Part shown: positions 27,473 through 30,377 of the stretch, one piece after another
Layout: the number at the start of each line of letters is the position of its first letter
Position numbering within the stretch: position 1 is the stretch's first letter
IMG/VR virus record: IMGVR_UViG_2565956711_000009
Span: 1-48,315 of that record
Source of the DNA: a virus
Taxonomy: Duplodnaviria; Heunggongvirae; Uroviricota; Caudoviricetes
DNA: 48,315 nt
Reading direction: 5' to 3' (one strand)
Notes under the pieces: generated by a model
What the model saw: the letters and a program-made list of their open reading frames with translations, nothing else
What the model was told of the DNA's origin: nothing
Databases searched by the model: none
Program-made: the position numbers and the translations under genes

Positions 27473-27674
27473 CTCGGCTCCTGCTGCGGCGGTTGTCTTC
27501 GCGGATTTTGAAATAGAGATTTGTCAGATACGTCATTACGGCAATGATGATACCCACCAGCACGCCGATAGCGTTCCACTGCTCGGGGCTGTAGGCATTC
27601 AACATGCCGTTTAGGATGCTCCCGGCTGAAGCGCCATAGGCAGCACCAGTGGTTAGTTTGTCCATGCGATACAT
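27450..27674 (-). CDS. S: Class II holin (S21-like pinholin) with dual-start motif
   Basis: [19 protein letters not shown]...[15 protein letters not shown] resembles recalled S21 MKSMDKISTGIAYGTSAGS...[12 protein letters not shown]; Met1 and Met4 separated by Arg. Confidence 0.85.
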
Positions 27675-27710
27675 ACTCTCACCTCGCTTTGTGCGAGTGC
27701 TGTTGCTAGG

Positions 27711-27737
27711 AATAAAAAAGGCCGCCGAACGGCAGCC
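27711..27737 (-). terminator. tR'-like terminator just upstream of lysis genes
   Basis: Minus strand AGGCUGCCG-uu-CGGCGGCCU followed by UUUUUU, 37 nt before holin start. Confidence 0.7.
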
Positions 27738-27935
27738 TTGTATTGATTGATAGTTTCCGGAGCTTCTTTCTCGCTAGGAAAGCAAAAAATTAAACAATCC
27801 TTAAGAATAGCCAGTTGATGCAAAAAATAATTAGCTTTTCAAATAGTTTTTAGCTGTTACCATTTCCACTAAGTTATGGCTTTACCTCTTTGTGGATAAA
27901 AGAAAGACAAGCGGGTATGAGATTGAGTCGTTATT

Positions 27936-27970
27936 GCGGAGAGGGGTGATGTCGTTCTCCGCGTTTTTTT
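27936..27970 (+). terminator. Plus-strand terminator-like hairpin antisense to the late leader
   Basis: GCGGAGAG-loop-CTCCGC followed by GTTTTTTT; no + strand ORF upstream. Confidence 0.45.
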
Positions 27971-27996
27971 GGCTCGAAGCGATTTAGGCCACAAAG

Positions 27997-28030
27997 AAAT
28001 AAAAAAAGCCCAAGGCGTTAACCTCGGGCT
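27997..28030 (-). terminator. Terminator-like hairpin downstream of Q
   Basis: Minus strand AGCCCGAGG-uuaacg-CCUUGGGCU followed by T7. Confidence 0.6.
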
Positions 28031-28152
28031 TGAATTTTTTTGGCTTCGGAACGACTGAACGGATTCCCAGCGTTAGAGATGAATCTATCCAGTTTTTCCG
28101 CGAAATGCAATACCTATTTCCTATATATTTTCAACATTAGGGAAAATTATTT

Positions 28153-28962
28153 TCATCTCGTTACTTTTGAGAGAATGGAATCAGCCATAGACTCCTGTTT
28201 ATGGCATTCGGCGACCAACTCCTCAAATAGCGGCTGAAGTTGCTCATATGCCGCCGTTTTCTTTATCTCCGCAACAGTATTAACGCCCTCAATTACCGTT
28301 GAGAACTTAAGCCTGGCGTAACCTCTACCACCGCAGCGGTCGCAGGCTTTCATTACTGGAACGCCCTGGCGATCGCTTTCTGCCTTGTCCAGCACCTTAC
28401 CTTTGCCATGGCAGCGACACGAATTGCTGATAACGCCTTTTCCGTTACACGGCTTGCACTTAACTCGCACCACCTCACGCGCCTGTGTCCAGCTCTCCCA
28501 GTCGCTTGGGCGAACGGCACGCGACATTTTCGACCAGTAAGGCGGTTTCCCCCATGGGTATGAGACCTTGTTGGTAAACACTTGCGCCTCTGTAAATCCG
28601 CCACCATCACAGCAATCACATTTTCGAGTGCTGGCAGCACTTCTTGAATAATCCTGGTATGCAAAAGCGCAGAGAACCTTAAGCACGCCTGACCGAGCTG
28701 ATTCATCGAGTTCAGACAGTGCTCTGAATTTACCTGATAACTTACGTGCCTGCTCATAGAGTCTCTCCAGTGCTATATCTGGGCTGCTAATGCCGATTTT
28801 CGAGAGGTAAAGATCGAAACCAAACCCGCACTTGTGGCCAGCAAGGCCAAGCGCCGCCATAACGTCAGTGCCGGTGAGACTGTCTGATGCGGTTGCGCGA
28901 GGAGAGTCACTGAACATCGGTGATTTAGGCGCAAAGTATTTAGCGATTGATTCGAGGTTCAT
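28153..28962 (-). CDS. Q: Late antiterminator Q (phage-82 type)
   Basis: MNLESIAKYFAPKSPMFSDSPRATASDSLTGTDVMAA... matches recalled Q82 N-terminus; Cys-rich zinc motifs. Confidence 0.85.
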   Translation of the reverse strand: MNLESIAKYFAPKSPMFSDSPRATASDSLTGTDVMAALGLAGHKCGFGFDLYLSKIGISSPDIALERLYEQARKLSGKFRALSELDESARSGVLKVLCAFAYQDYSRSAASTRKCDCCDGGGFTEAQVFTNKVSYPWGKPPYWSKMSRAVRPSDWESWTQAREVVRVKCKPCNGKGVISNSCRCHGKGKVLDKAESDRQGVPVMKACDRCGGRGYARLKFSTVIEGVNTVAEIKKTAAYEQLQPLFEELVAECHKQESMADSILSKVTR

Positions 28963-29074
28963 TATGCGGCTTCCTTCTGTGGCTGGTGGGTTTTGGTCTG
29001 GCTGTGCTTTACTATTGGCGGCATGCTGGCGCGCTTAACGCTTTCTGCCTGGTAACGGAGGAAATCGGCTTGGT

Positions 29075-29716
29075 TCATGCGGCCTCCCACTGTTTCAGTG
29101 CTTTGAGCTTGGCGCGGTATTCATCGCGGATCCGAATGAAGTCTTCACGGCGGTAGTTGGTCATTTCGTGGGGGCCGTTGAGCCAGTCCACGTACTCCTG
29201 CCCGTAACGAGCGACCAGACCAGCTTCGTATTGCTGCGCTACCGTCGCCTCTTTGGCGGTATATTTGCCCGCTCCGGCATTACAGGATTTGCACTGCTTA
29301 TGGGCATTGCGCTCTTCAAAGCGCAGTTCAGGGTAAGCACCTACTGTTTTGAAGTGGCCGCAGTCCCATTGGCCGCCATGCAGATCTGGCGGGTTGGTCT
29401 CTCCGCAGCTGATGCATGGCAAATCAGCATCGCGCGCACGGATGTAGGCGTTGAATGCCTGCTGAGCCTGCGCTTTGTAGTAACCTGCTGGGCGTAGCTC
29501 TGCCAGCCTCTCCTTGCGGCGTTTGCGCCCGGCCTTCTCTGCCTCCTTCTGCTCCTTAATGCGCTTAGCAGCGGCTTTCACCTTCTCCTTTTGACGTTCT
29601 TCCATCGCGAGGATTGCGCCGTGCTCCTGGCTGCACCAGCGGATCCGGATATCGTGGAATTTCGGCACGAAGTATTCCCCGCATACTTTGCACTTACGGC
29701 GGGATGGTTTACGCAT
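29075..29716 (-). CDS. ninG: NinG / Rap recombination protein
   Basis: KCKVCGEYF...LPCISCGE...[27 protein letters not shown] matches recalled lambda NinG cysteine motifs. Confidence 0.8.
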
Positions 29717-30377
29717 GTTCACCGCCTTGCACCTTTACCAGCGTGAGGTTTCCGCAGAACACGGCGCCGGTGTCGATGTACATCTGGTTGGCATACTTCA
29801 GGGGCTGGCGCGCTGGGGTGTGGCCGAAGATAAACAGATCAGCACCGGCTATCGTCGATACAATGCCGTCCTGTACGTCGCTAACCCTCTCACGATTCCA
29901 GATGACCATATCTTTCGGGATGGGCTTATCGAACGCATATTCGTTATGCGGGTAGTCAGCGTGGCAGATAACGATTTTACGCTCAGCGGTAACCAGCTCG
30001 ATGACGAGTGGCAGCTCAGCTGCTTTGTGAACCAGAGCCTTAGCCAGCACTTCTTTGTCATAGTCGAGATTGAAGAACCAGCCGCCACCATTTGCCAACC
30101 AGTGATTGACGTTCCCATACTCCGATAGCCCATCAATCATCATCTGCTCATGGTTTCCTCGCACAGCCCGGAACCAAGGCATAGTAATCAGCTCCAGGCG
30201 CTCGACGTTTTCCGCGCCGCGGTCAACAAGGTCTCCAACCGAAATCAGCAAATCACACGCAGGGTCGAACGAAACTTTTCCGAGCTCATTCATCAGCAGC
30301 GTGTAGCACCCATGCAGATCGCCGACGACGAAAATATTGCGCCAGTCAGCGCCATTAATGCGTTGATACATGCTCAT
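29709..30377 (-). CDS. Ser/Thr protein phosphatase (lambda NinI-like metallophosphoesterase)
   Basis: Motifs GDLHG, GDLVDRG, GNHE; start taken at MSMYQRING. Confidence 0.8.

What the first reader, a model, noticed from the sequence alone, without database searches (positions are those of the whole stretch)
28962..29078. Cryptic 38-aa ORF bridging NinG and Q, translationally coupled at both ends
Between the NinG stop and the Q start is a 38-codon ORF ([38 protein letters not shown]). Its ATG overlaps the NinG stop (ATGA) and its TAA overlaps the Q ATG (TAATG). It is below the ORF-track cutoff. It may be a real micro-protein or a coupling device setting Q translation, and so the lysis decision, to nin-region translation.
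Basis: seen in the sequence. Interest (0 to 1): 0.2.

Follow-up and report, generated by a model that had tools for sequence, protein, structure and literature searches.

The report
Conserved 38-codon gene just before Q
The 38-codon reading frame between NinG and the late-gene antiterminator Q is a real, conserved phage micro-protein gene that databases already list (without a known function) and that sits, with overlapping stop and start codons, directly in front of Q genes of four unrelated families.

Summary
The genes are on the minus strand. The ORF runs 29078..28962 and encodes [38 protein letters not shown]. Its ATG overlaps the NinG stop (ATGA) and its TAA overlaps the Q start (TAATG).

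It is not an accidental open frame. Homologues of 36-42 aa occur in hundreds of lambdoid (pro)phages of Enterobacteriaceae. Substitutions concentrate at third codon positions. Sense-frame pN/pS is 0.25-0.43, against 1 or more in the non-wobble-sharing frames. Indels are multiples of three, and no broken copy turned up in a sample chosen through Q alone.

The gene lies between variable upstream genes (NinG, RusA, Lar, HNH) and Q genes of four unrelated families. Its stop overlaps the Q start in almost every case. In other phages the unrelated YlcG fills the same slot.

It has a strong Shine-Dalgarno; Q has a weaker one. The mRNA shows no stable structure. AlphaFold gives one confident helix (residues 3-18, invariant Y9/E12/S13/R16) followed by a disordered basic tail.

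It is not cryptic. PGAP often calls it "hypothetical protein", and recent RefSeq records name the family "PPVAKH motif-containing phage-derived small protein". Its function is unknown.

Best reading: a real micro-protein gene and the last link of the coupled nin chain, handing ribosomes to Q. Interest is modest.

The parts
29075..29722 (-). NinG/Rap recombination gene, the upstream neighbour. Its last codons (…W-E-A-A-stop) contain the Shine-Dalgarno and the start of the small ORF.
   Evidence: ORF list; Pfam PF05766 NinG E=1.7e-56; 95% DNA identity to phi80 rap.
29083..29088 (-). Shine-Dalgarno GGGAGG of the small ORF, 4 nt before its ATG and inside the NinG coding sequence.
   Evidence: Sequence read. 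SD/anti-SD duplex energy is -10.2 kcal/mol in the window and averages -9.5 over 86 unique loci; random positions average -2.5.
28962..29078 (-). The 38-codon gene (38 aa plus TAA). It belongs to the family RefSeq now calls 'PPVAKH motif-containing phage-derived small protein'; this copy has PPIVKH.
   Evidence: Translation; homologues; coding signature; RefSeq names; exact sequence already in NCBI as a hypothetical protein on 160 contigs.
29075..29078 (-). ATGA junction: the small-ORF start overlaps the NinG stop.
   Evidence: The same 4-nt overlap (ATGA or GTGA) is present in 101 of 102 related loci, whatever the upstream gene.
29028..29057 (-). Codons 8-17 (RYQAESVKRA), the conserved core of the predicted helix. 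Y9, E12, S13 and R16 are invariant even in the most divergent members.
   Evidence: Alignments; pN/pS 0.05 with synonymous variation at every codon; AlphaFold helix 3-18 with mean pLDDT 91-93 over the first 20 residues; variability peaks at positions 11, 15 and 18, giving a helical period of 90-100 degrees.
28965..29015 (-). Codons 22-38: a polar, basic, low-complexity tail (IVKHSQTKTHQPQKEAA) predicted to be disordered. As RNA it is A/C-rich and G-poor, and it forms the leader of Q.
   Evidence: pLDDT falls to 61 and then 50. In-frame indels and K/T/N/Q/H/P swaps are confined to this part. The C/G ratio is about 2, the 97th-98th percentile of the window.
28970..28976 (-). Shine-Dalgarno-like AAGGAAG of Q, inside the last codons (Q-K-E-A) of the small ORF. 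AGGA lies 9 nt before the Q ATG.
   Evidence: Duplex energy is -5.7 in the window and averages -5.9 over the loci, weaker than that of the small ORF. The junction …GGA(A)GCCGCATAATGAA… is shared with YlcG-Q loci and with lambda-type Q loci.
28960..28964 (-). TAATG junction: the small-ORF stop overlaps the Q start.
   Evidence: In the first 106 loci the downstream start overlaps the stop in all 106 (69 ATGA, 37 TAATG). In 75 more divergent loci, 67 overlap in the same way.
28153..28962 (-). Late-gene antiterminator Q (269 aa, phage 82/phi80 type), the downstream neighbour.
   Evidence: Pfam PF03589 E=1.3e-34; same protein annotated in phi80 and DH10B.

Best explanation
This is a genuine, translated micro-protein gene. 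It is the last link of the translationally coupled nin-gene chain of a phi80-like prophage.

Shown by the data:
- The reading frame, its length, its start and its stop are conserved across hundreds of lambdoid phages.
- Its amino-acid sequence is under purifying selection.
- It always sits immediately 5' of a Q antiterminator gene with overlapping stop and start, whichever of four unrelated Q families follows and whichever gene precedes.

Inferred mechanism, in two layers:
1. In cis. Ribosomes arrive by reinitiation after NinG (ATGA) or load on the strong GGGAGG. They translate the 38 codons and terminate on UAAUG, where they can reinitiate on Q, whose own Shine-Dalgarno is weaker. Q synthesis, and with it late-gene and lysis timing, would then be tied to translation of the delayed-early operon. 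The C-rich, unstructured Q leader would also stay covered by ribosomes.
2. In trans. The peptide is a single helix (residues 3-18) with an invariant polar surface (Y9, E12, S13, R16, plus Q10, V14, A17), followed by P-P, a K-H-S motif and a disordered basic tail. This suggests a helix that docks on a partner. Because the Q families differ, the partner is more likely a host or common phage component than Q itself, and it is unknown.

My estimates: real protein-coding gene under selection, about 0.9. Ribosome hand-over to Q contributes to Q expression, about 0.6. The peptide has a trans-acting function, about 0.5.
For: Frame and sequence.

Spread:
- 162 clusters, nearly all 36-40 aa.
- 20 species genomes of Enterobacter, Citrobacter, Lelliottia, Raoultella, Huaxiibacter and Escherichia.
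- 540 stretches in IMG/VR.
- Divergent members in Klebsiella phages such as Mulock.

Coding signature:
- Diversity by codon position is 0.083/0.068/0.189. Minimum mutations are 31/33/69; chi-square 20.6, 2 d.f., p about 3e-5 by my arithmetic.
- pN/pS is 0.25 in the sense frame. It is 1.27-2.1 in the other frames, except the antisense frame that shares wobble positions (0.36), which carries stops in 42 of 77 copies.
- Q in the same loci gives 0.25-0.27.
- In a sample chosen only through the Q protein and DNA identity, 31 of 31 copies are intact, pN/pS is 0.43, and minimum mutations are 23/14/43.
- Of 78 phi80-type Q genes, 42 are preceded by this ORF, 36 by YlcG, and none by a broken copy.

Position:
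- Downstream genes fall in PF06323, PF06530, PF03589 and phrog_753.
- Upstream genes are NinG, two RusA types, Lar, HNH and others, giving at least 20 combinations.
- Overlaps at both ends.

Translation signals: SD -9.5 for the small ORF against -5.9 for Q.

Peptide shape: helix 3-18 at high confidence, tail disordered. Variable positions 11, 15 and 18 lie on one helical stripe. Invariant residues persist in divergent members.

Precedents:
- 4-nt overlaps link the lambda nin genes, including NinI/Q.
- A small upstream ORF drives translation of a prophage regulator by coupling in Gifsy-1 (orf45-anrP).
- Uncontrolled Q (AntQ) is toxic (PMC4825925).
Against: - There is no direct evidence of translation. 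I found no ribosome profiling or proteomics for this ORF, and no paper mentions the family.
- Q has its own SD-like AGGA, and the region folds less well than shuffled sequence (z=+1.46). Q could therefore be initiated independently, and coupling may add little.
- The same Q gene works behind the unrelated YlcG. In L183 an HNH gene separates the small ORF from the region where Q is expected. This particular peptide is therefore not required for Q expression.
- Most loci were fetched with sense-frame peptide patterns, which inflates conservation of the core. The frame-agnostic sample gives the weaker ratio of 0.43.
- Codons 18-27 show little synonymous change (pS 0.09, ratio 0.64), so some constraint may act on nucleotides.
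- Tail substitutions keep A/C-rich codons. That could reflect RNA composition rather than peptide function.
Confidence: 0.6

Rival explanations
1. Pure spacer or coupling ORF. Only the act of translating it matters, delivering ribosomes to Q and shielding the leader from Rho or RNases. The peptide itself has no function.
For: - Stop/start overlaps are universal.
- The small ORF has a strong SD and Q a weaker one.
- The unrelated YlcG can replace it in front of the same Q.
- The tail is low-complexity and tolerates indels, tail swaps and chimeras with the YlcG C-terminus.
- The mRNA is C-rich and G-poor here.
Against: - A spacer needs only to stay open. Yet the core RYQAESVKRA has pN/pS 0.05 with synonymous changes at every codon.
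- Y9, E12, S13 and R16 are invariant in members only 33-47% identical overall.
- Whole-ORF pN/pS equals that of Q.
- Variability follows a helical period.
Confidence: 0.2
2. Cis-acting regulatory nascent peptide (leader or arrest peptide). The conserved residues act inside the ribosome exit tunnel to pause translation, for example at the P-P codons, and so gate reinitiation on Q.
For: - It sits immediately upstream of Q whatever the Q family. That fits control of Q translation better than control of Q protein.
- There is a contiguous run of about ten conserved residues just N-terminal to P20-P21.
- The sequence R-A-x-x-P-P loosely recalls the RAPP/RAGP arrest motifs of ApdA, ApdP and SecM. That comparison rests on my own knowledge of the field, not on a test here.
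- Short E. coli sORFs acting as arrest peptides are documented (PMC11890864).
Against: - P-P is not conserved in divergent members (MTAI, KQKAV, LKAI, MPAV, LPAV).
- The two residues next to the prolines (positions 18 and 19) are among the most variable, the reverse of known arrest motifs.
- No mRNA structure exists that a stalled ribosome could remodel.
- The conservation pattern is helical, and AlphaFold predicts a confident free helix.
Confidence: 0.08
3. The functional element is on the other strand or is not a protein. Candidates are a small hydrophobic peptide (28947..29156 +, or the 24-aa MRLPSVAGGFWSGCALLLAACWRA from ATG 28964 with a GAGG 6 nt upstream), an anti-Q antisense RNA like lambda paQ, or a structured RNA or terminator.
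For: - The antisense translations look like membrane helices, and one has an SD-like GAGG.
- The codon-aligned antisense frame is open in 69 of 77 copies.
- Lambda has an antisense promoter inside Q. This is from my own knowledge.
Against: - Antisense frames show pN/pS of 1.75 and 2.1, and 1.26 and 1.28 in the unbiased sample. Variation is lowest where those frames would have their wobble positions. The hydrophobic look is what the complement of K/Q/T/H/P codons is expected to give.
- There are no promoter-like sites on either strand of 27600..29800, and no terminator in the ORF.
- No CII-type TTGCN6TTGC lies near Q.
- No Rfam family matches in the ORF.
- The RNA folds less well than shuffled controls.
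Confidence: 0.02
4. A conserved 'linker' kept because it provides homology for recombination. This would let nin modules and Q/late modules be shuffled among lambdoid phages, and the coding appearance would be secondary.
For: - It forms a conserved island between two mosaic junctions, with at least 20 combinations of flanking genes.
- The N-terminal 7 codons track the upstream gene, and the tail tracks the Q variant.
- The junction motif GGAGGCC(G/A)xCATGA recurs at gene ends. It flanks the Lar cassette that phi80 has and this window lacks.
Against: - Homology for recombination would constrain all three codon positions equally. Third positions vary 2-3 times more.
- Selection for future recombination is not a plausible direct cause. 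Shuffling is better seen as a consequence of a conserved gene.
Confidence: 0.05

Closest known systems
'PPVAKH motif-containing phage-derived small protein' (RefSeq/PGAP product name, e.g. WP_094158653.1, WP_089518698.1)
   Same: - It occupies the same slot: after NinG or Lar and overlapping the start of Q.
- It has the same length, 38 aa.
- It has the same core RYQAESVKRA and the same tail KHSQTKT.QP.KEAA.
- By my count it is about 71% identical to the window peptide. Closer members are 84-97% identical.
   Different: - The window copy reads PPIVKH, as in phi80, rather than PPVAKH.
- Its own database entries (ASG49935.1 and others) are still 'hypothetical protein'.
- The name is only descriptive. 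No function and no paper are attached.
- The model is absent from the NCBIfam release I could search.
YlcG family (46 aa; DLP12 ylcG between rusA and quuD; phrog_2705)
   Same: - It occupies exactly the same slot, between the Holliday-junction resolvase gene and Q.
- It has the same overlaps at both ends and a near-identical junction, …GGAGCCGCATAATG.
- In a Q-anchored sample the two families split the slot 42 to 36.
- Natural chimeras exist that join the N-terminal part of this ORF to the YlcG C-terminus.
   Different: There is no detectable homology: hhalign probability 0.2%, and no NCBIfam, Pfam or PHROG hit for the 38-aa peptide. YlcG is arginine-rich and predicted helical throughout, with no polar disordered tail.
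The chain of overlapping, translationally coupled nin genes of phage lambda (Kröger & Hobom 1982, cited from my own knowledge), including NinH (68 aa) after NinG and the NinI/Q overlap
   Same: Successive genes are linked by 4-nt ATGA overlaps, with the SD of each gene inside the end of the previous one. Q is the last gene of the chain.
   Different: Lambda has no homologue of this peptide. There Q is coupled to the 221-aa phosphatase NinI, not to a micro-ORF.
orf45-anrP of Salmonella prophage Gifsy-1 (PMC4825925)
   Same: A small upstream ORF in a prophage regulatory operon must be translated for the downstream regulator to be translated, by translational coupling. The same paper shows that unregulated Q-type antiterminator is toxic.
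   Different: It is a different locus (an anti-repressor, not Q), with no sequence similarity, and it is controlled by an sRNA and an RNA structure. No structure is predicted here.

Membership tests
PPVAKH motif-containing phage-derived small protein (RefSeq name) | Small protein of about 36-42 aa encoded in a lambdoid (pro)phage | tested here: met
   38 aa. The window is 95% identical to phi80 over this region. Family lengths are 36-40 aa for 115 of the 120 listed clusters.
PPVAKH motif-containing phage-derived small protein (RefSeq name) | The PPVAKH motif itself | tested here: inconclusive
   The window has PPIVKH, matching 4 of 6 residues. A record carrying the RefSeq name has PPIAKH, so variants are accepted. 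In 254 unique peptides, position 22 is V in 198 and I in 54, and position 23 is A in 198 and V in 25.
PPVAKH motif-containing phage-derived small protein (RefSeq name) | Full-length sequence similarity to named members | tested here: met
   The named members MTREQIARYQAESVKRANLPPVAKHSQTKTNQPQKEAA and MTSDQIARYQAESVKRASLPPIAKHSQTKTNQPKKEAA align without gaps to the window peptide. Members of that type were found with E=1e-10 to 1e-15.
PPVAKH motif-containing phage-derived small protein (RefSeq name) | Score above the cut-off of NCBI's own model or rule for this name | not testable with these tools
   NCBIfam release 20.0 returned no family for four members, even at E<=10. The model or rule behind the name is not in the library provided.
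YlcG family | Sequence or profile similarity to YlcG (NCBIfam name, phrog_2705) | tested here: not met
   hhalign probability is 0.2%. phrog_2705 hits YlcG at 1.5e-22 but not the 38-aa peptides. NCBIfam gives no hit.
YlcG family | Position between the resolvase gene and Q, with overlapping ends | tested here: met
   This is a shared position only and does not establish membership.
Translationally coupled nin-gene chain (lambda ninR type) | Start codon overlaps the upstream stop, the stop overlaps the downstream start, and the SD lies inside the preceding gene | tested here: met
   ATGA and TAATG in the window; 101 of 102 and 106 of 106 in relatives; SD energies; lambda reference.
Translationally coupled nin-gene chain (lambda ninR type) | Translation of the downstream gene depends on translation of the upstream one | not testable with these tools
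   This needs a nonsense or start-codon mutant and a Q reporter.
Ribosome arrest peptides of the RAPP/RAGP type (SecM, ApdA, ApdP) | Contiguous, conserved R-A-(P/G)-P at the arrest site | tested here: not met
   The sequence is R-A-S-M-P-P. Positions 18 and 19 are variable, and P-P is lost in divergent members.
Ribosome arrest peptides of the RAPP/RAGP type (SecM, ApdA, ApdP) | An mRNA structure that masks the downstream start and is opened by the stalled ribosome | tested here: not met
   MFE is -32.6 against a shuffle mean of -38.4 (z=+1.46). 188 of 200 shuffles fold at least as well.
Ribosome arrest peptides of the RAPP/RAGP type (SecM, ApdA, ApdP) | Demonstrated elongation or termination arrest | not testable with these tools
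   This needs toeprinting or peptidyl-tRNA detection.
Antisense small hydrophobic (type I toxin-like) peptide | A conserved reading frame under purifying selection on the plus strand | tested here: not met
   pN/pS is 1.75 and 2.1, and 1.26 and 1.28 in the unbiased sample. No promoter-like site was found.

The most novel reading that the evidence does not exclude
The peptide is a dedicated gatekeeper of the late switch that works independently of Q family. One version is a trans-acting helix that binds a component common to all Q-dependent antitermination or its timing, such as RNA polymerase/sigma70, NusA or the ribosome. The other is a nascent peptide that meters reinitiation on Q. Either would explain why one 38-aa module is kept glued to the start codon of four structurally unrelated antiterminators. 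It would also explain why natural in-frame fusions to a Q-like protein exist (L114, L150).
Probability: 0.15. Interest if true: 0.6.

Novelty: already known. Interest (0 to 1): 0.3.

Why it matters
Q sets the time of late transcription and lysis, and excess Q-type antiterminator is toxic to the cell (PMC4825925). How Q synthesis is metered is therefore a real question.

This work shows three things. The small frame in front of Q is a selected gene rather than noise. It travels with Q genes of four unrelated families. A second, unrelated micro-ORF (YlcG) is its positional alternative.

That gives a clean and cheap experimental handle: nonsense, missense and synonymous mutants of a 38-codon gene in phi80, a classical phage that is also present as a remnant in DH10B and DH5alpha. 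These mutants would show whether micro-ORFs at the nin/Q boundary control the late switch.

It also matters for annotation. The gene is called in some genomes and missed in identical loci of others, and it is missing from the phi80 reference records. The existence of the family is already recorded in RefSeq, so the novelty is limited to context and evolutionary evidence.

Tried and rejected
1. Antisense hydrophobic ORFs (28947..29156 +, and the 24-aa peptide from ATG 28964 with a GAGG upstream). Rejected on codon-position variation and pN/pS above 1.
2. Structured RNA, terminator or known RNA family. The fold is weaker than shuffles, no terminator or promoter lies in the ORF, and there is no Rfam hit there.
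3. A lambda paQ-like CII site near the Q 5' end. None found.
4. Homology to YlcG. None.
5. Any Pfam, NCBIfam, PHROG, PADLOC or PDB relative. None.
6. Remnant of a larger protein. A profile search of 1.84 billion representatives found only 29 hits. All were short peptides or read-through fusions, plus one repetitive 724-aa protein that looks like chance.
7. Polyproline or RAPP-like stalling. Weakened because P-P and the adjacent residues are not conserved.
8. Rho-utilisation site. The C/G ratio is about 2, only the 97th-98th percentile of the window. This is suggestive and was kept as a side idea.
9. Literature searches for phi80/Lula, YlcG, ninR coupling, Ribo-seq of prophage sORFs and 'PPVAKH'. 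None mentions this ORF.
10. The NinG pN/pS values come from ungapped slices of genes of unequal length. I discard them as unreliable.
11. Searches failed because the queries were too short. They were redone with the 42-aa GTG-extended frame and with alignments.
Full report
**1. The observation**

The three genes lie on the minus strand. Reading that strand shows …CAGTGGGAGGCCGC**ATGA**ACCAAGCC… at 29090-29065 and …GAAGGAAGCCGCA**TAATG**AACCTC… at 28977-28954.

The ATG (29078-29076) overlaps the stop of a 215-aa NinG (PF05766, E=1.7e-56). The TAA (28964-28962) shares an A with the ATG of a 269-aa Q (PF03589, E=1.3e-34).

A 38-codon open frame has a chance probability of roughly 0.16. The frame alone proves nothing, and the question is whether it is conserved as a frame.

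**2. Relatives**

The window is 95% identical to phage phi80 here.

In phi80 a 68-aa Lar-like gene sits between rap (NinG) and the same 38-codon frame, MTRDEITRYQAESVKRAS… (L001:2026-2142). That frame overlaps the Lar stop (ATGA) and the Q start (TAATG). Neither phi80 record annotates it.

The window lacks the Lar cassette. The deletion or insertion lies between two copies of the junction motif GGAGGCC..CATGA.

PGAP calls the frame 'hypothetical protein' in DH10B (WP_085903671.1) and in many other E. coli genomes. It does not call it in the 100%-identical ABWA45 locus.

More distant copies were found by tblastn in phage HK639 (after RusA, GTGA start, unannotated), Klebsiella phage ST974-OXA48phi18.2 and phage Mulock.

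Wider searches gave:
- 162 clusters at 90% identity in the large protein collection, nearly all 36-40 aa.
- 20 species-representative genomes across Enterobacter, Citrobacter, Lelliottia, Raoultella, Huaxiibacter, Pseudescherichia and Escherichia.
- 540 confirmed stretches in IMG/VR.
- 29 representatives at 50% identity from a profile search of 1.84 billion proteins. All were short peptides or read-through artefacts, so the peptide is not a fragment of a larger family.

**3. Is it coding, and on which strand?**

This needed care, because the complementary strand reads as membrane-like peptides. One of them has an ATG preceded by GAGG.

On 84 unique DNA copies:
- Nucleotide diversity by sense codon position is 0.083, 0.068 and 0.189.
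- Minimum mutation counts are 31, 33 and 69 (chi-square 20.6, p about 3e-5 by my arithmetic).

Pairwise Nei-Gojobori estimates on 77 ungapped copies:

| Frame | pN/pS | Copies with internal stops |
|---|---|---|
| Sense | 0.25 | 0 of 77 |
| Two shifted sense frames | 1.27-1.28 | 77 and 71 of 77 |
| Codon-aligned antisense | 1.75 | 8 of 77 |
| Antisense with the 24-aa ATG peptide | 2.1 | 71 of 77 |
| Antisense sharing wobble positions | 0.36 | 42 of 77 |

Q in the same loci gives 0.25-0.27.

Most of these loci had been fetched with sense-frame peptide patterns. I therefore repeated the test on loci fetched only through the Q protein, taking the 117 nt that end at the Q start and keeping those at least 70% identical in DNA. 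In that sample 31 of 31 are intact ORFs, sense pN/pS is 0.43, the other frames are 1 or more apart from the wobble-sharing one, and mutations by codon position are 23/14/43.

Length variants (36, 37, 40 and 42 aa) are all in frame.

The sense frame is a protein-coding gene under purifying selection. The antisense ORFs are mirror-image artefacts of K/Q/T/H/P codons.

**4. Anatomy of the peptide**

- Residues 2-7 are variable and track the upstream gene.
- Residues 8-17 (RYQAESVKRA) have pN/pS 0.05, with synonymous variation at every codon.
- Y9, E12, S13 and R16 stay invariant in members only 33-47% identical overall.
- AlphaFold2 with the family alignment predicts one helix, residues 3-18 (mean pLDDT 91-93 over the first 20 residues), and a disordered tail.
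- The variable positions inside the helix (11, 15, 18) lie on one stripe. The variability spectrum peaks at 90-100 degrees (with the caveat that the anchoring pattern fixes several positions).
- After P20-P21 comes (V/I)(A/V)KHS(Q). Then follows a K/T/N/Q/H/P-rich tail that tolerates indels, swaps and even replacement by the YlcG C-terminus.
- The final K-E-A-A-stop coincides with the SD and start of Q. The same '…EAA-stop' ending is found on NinG and on other genes of the region. Conservation there is probably dictated by the junction rather than by the peptide.

**5. Context**

In the first 106 loci the stop overlaps the start of the next gene in all 106 (69 ATGA, 37 TAATG). The start overlaps the previous stop in 101 of 102. 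In 75 more divergent loci, 67 show the same overlaps.

The next gene is always a Q-type antiterminator, but of four unrelated families:
- PF06323 (phage 21 type).
- PF06530 (lambda type).
- PF03589 (82/phi80 type).
- phrog_753 ('Q-like', no Pfam).

The previous gene is NinG, either of two RusA types, Lar, an HNH endonuclease or others. At least 20 flank combinations occur.

In the Q-anchored sample of 78 phi80-type Q genes, 42 are preceded by this ORF and 36 by a YlcG-family ORF. All have an overlapping or abutting stop and start, and none is broken.

YlcG is not homologous: hhalign probability is 0.2%, and the YlcG PHROG does not hit this peptide. It shares the junction …GGAGCCGCATAATG.

Rare exceptions exist:
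- An HNH gene between the small ORF and the expected position of Q (L183).
- A stop displaced 14 nt into Q (L116, L247).
- In-frame fusions with a phrog_753 Q-like gene (L114 and L150, and L128 with an A8 run where L159 has A7).

**6. Translation signals and RNA**

- The small ORF has GGGAGG 4 nt before its ATG. Duplex energy is -10.2 kcal/mol in the window and averages -9.5 over the loci.
- Q has AAGGAAG with AGGA 9 nt before its ATG. Energy is -5.7 in the window and averages -5.9. Random positions average -2.5, with a 5th percentile of -6.9.
- The 186-nt mRNA segment folds less well than dinucleotide shuffles (z=+1.46). No structure hides the Q start.
- No Rfam family, promoter-like site or terminator falls in the ORF.
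- The 3' half and the start of Q are C-rich and G-poor: the C/G ratio is about 2, at the 97th-98th percentile of the window. This is compatible with a Rho-loading tract that translation would mask. The evidence for that is weak.

**7. Explanation**

What is shown: this is a conserved, selected protein-coding micro-gene at a fixed position, overlapping Q.

What is inferred:
- (i) It is translated as the last link of the nin chain. The chain's 4-nt overlaps are the rule in lambda, including NinI/Q (the classic description by Kröger & Hobom 1982 is cited from my own knowledge). Termination on UAAUG then hands ribosomes to the weaker Q start.
- (ii) The helix, with its invariant polar face, acts on a partner that does not depend on the Q family.

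A precedent for small-ORF-driven coupling in a prophage regulatory operon, and for the toxicity of unregulated Q, is Gifsy-1 orf45-anrP/AntQ (PMC4825925).

Rivals:
- A pure spacer is contradicted by the core conservation.
- A nascent-peptide gate is not excluded, but P-P and its neighbours are not conserved and there is no RNA switch.
- An antisense or RNA element is rejected.
- A recombination linker is a consequence of the conserved gene rather than its cause.

**8. Comparison with what is known**

The family already exists in public annotation. The exact window peptide is in NCBI and UniRef as 'hypothetical protein' on 160 contigs. Recent RefSeq genomes name close relatives 'PPVAKH motif-containing phage-derived small protein'.

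The model behind that name is not in the NCBIfam release available here. No paper in the library mentions the motif. The window copy is the phi80-type variant, PPIVKH.

The coupling architecture is the ordinary nin-region pattern. New here are the evidence for selection, the exclusion of the antisense readings, the association with four unrelated Q families, and the positional alternation with YlcG.

**9. Verdict**

The ORF is real, already catalogued and of unknown function. Interest is modest (0.3). The more exciting reading, a Q-family-independent gatekeeper of the late switch, is possible (about 0.15) and easy to test genetically.

Noticed in passing
window 29075-29090 compared with L001:1823-2029 (phi80): phi80 carries a 68-aa Lar-like restriction-alleviation gene between rap and the small ORF, and this window lacks it. 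The roughly 204-bp cassette is bounded by two copies of the junction motif GGAGGCC(G/A)xCATGA. This looks like cassette gain or loss by recombination between gene-end repeats.
   Followed up: partly
window 28947-29156 (+) and 28964-29038 (+): The complement of the small ORF reads as hydrophobic, membrane-like peptides. One is 24 aa (MRLPSVAGGFWSGCALLLAACWRA) with an ATG and a GAGG 6 nt upstream. Substitution patterns show no selection on these frames, so they are mirror images of K/Q/T/H/P codons.
   Followed up: yes
window 28005-28083 (-), with a hairpin plus T-run at 28031-28006 (-): There is a sub-threshold Rfam match to isrJ (23.8 bits against a gathering score of 37, E=0.12). It overlaps a strong terminator-like hairpin about 70-150 nt downstream of Q, where phi80 has pR' and its first terminator. 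It may be the short late leader RNA.
   Followed up: no
L114:2485-3199, L150:2485-3199, L128:2500-3211 compared with L159:2500-2611: In three viral contigs the small ORF is fused in frame to the downstream phrog_753 Q-like gene. In L114 and L150 there is no stop before the GTG of the Q-like gene. L128 differs from the unfused L159 by one extra A in an A7 run (GGAAAAAAA(A)CAATGA). That could be a sequencing error, or a slippage-prone site producing a fusion protein.
   Followed up: partly
L228 (upstream of the Q start) and protein P0107: Natural chimeras join residues 1-33 of this family to the last 13 residues of YlcG (…KANQPKNFVRIYQTLGETA). P0107 stands for 22 member sequences on 9 contigs, from Klebsiella pneumoniae. 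The 3' end of the slot therefore travels with the Q variant, and the tail is interchangeable.
   Followed up: partly
window 28945-28962 (-) compared with L004:1349-1366 and L005:1317-1334: Q genes of unrelated families (PF03589 and PF06530) begin with similar nucleotides and residues: ATGAACCTCGAATCAATC (MNLESI) against ATGAAACTGGAATTAACC (MKLELT). Junction homology thus seems to extend a few codons into Q.
   Followed up: no
L110 (E. coli ABWA45, 100% identical locus) compared with L003 (DH10B) and L266/L267: Annotation of this gene is inconsistent. It is absent in ABWA45, in 30EVA1 and in both phi80 phage records. It is 'hypothetical protein' in DH10B, DH5alpha and many others. It is 'PPVAKH motif-containing phage-derived small protein' in 2026-era RefSeq records.
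   Followed up: yes
protein cluster of P0149: The phi80 version of the peptide appears on at least 1000 contigs, and one UniRef entry assigns it to Streptococcus salivarius. The most likely cause is contamination of assemblies with phi80-bearing E. coli cloning-strain DNA. The same 90% cluster also lists a 474-aa 'fumarate hydratase', an obvious clustering artefact.
   Followed up: no
L267:969-1176: In E. coli 23CRST004 about 208 nt between NinG and the small ORF carry no annotated gene. That is the size of the Lar cassette, so it may be a decayed or uncalled Lar-like gene.
   Followed up: no
L116, L118, L120, L122, L247, L248, L256: In one Klebsiella/Enterobacter-type lineage the small ORF (…KQPKGVAACALNQ) ends 14 nt inside the phi80-type Q gene rather than at its ATG. 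This gives a 17-nt out-of-frame overlap, a different coupling geometry.
   Followed up: partly
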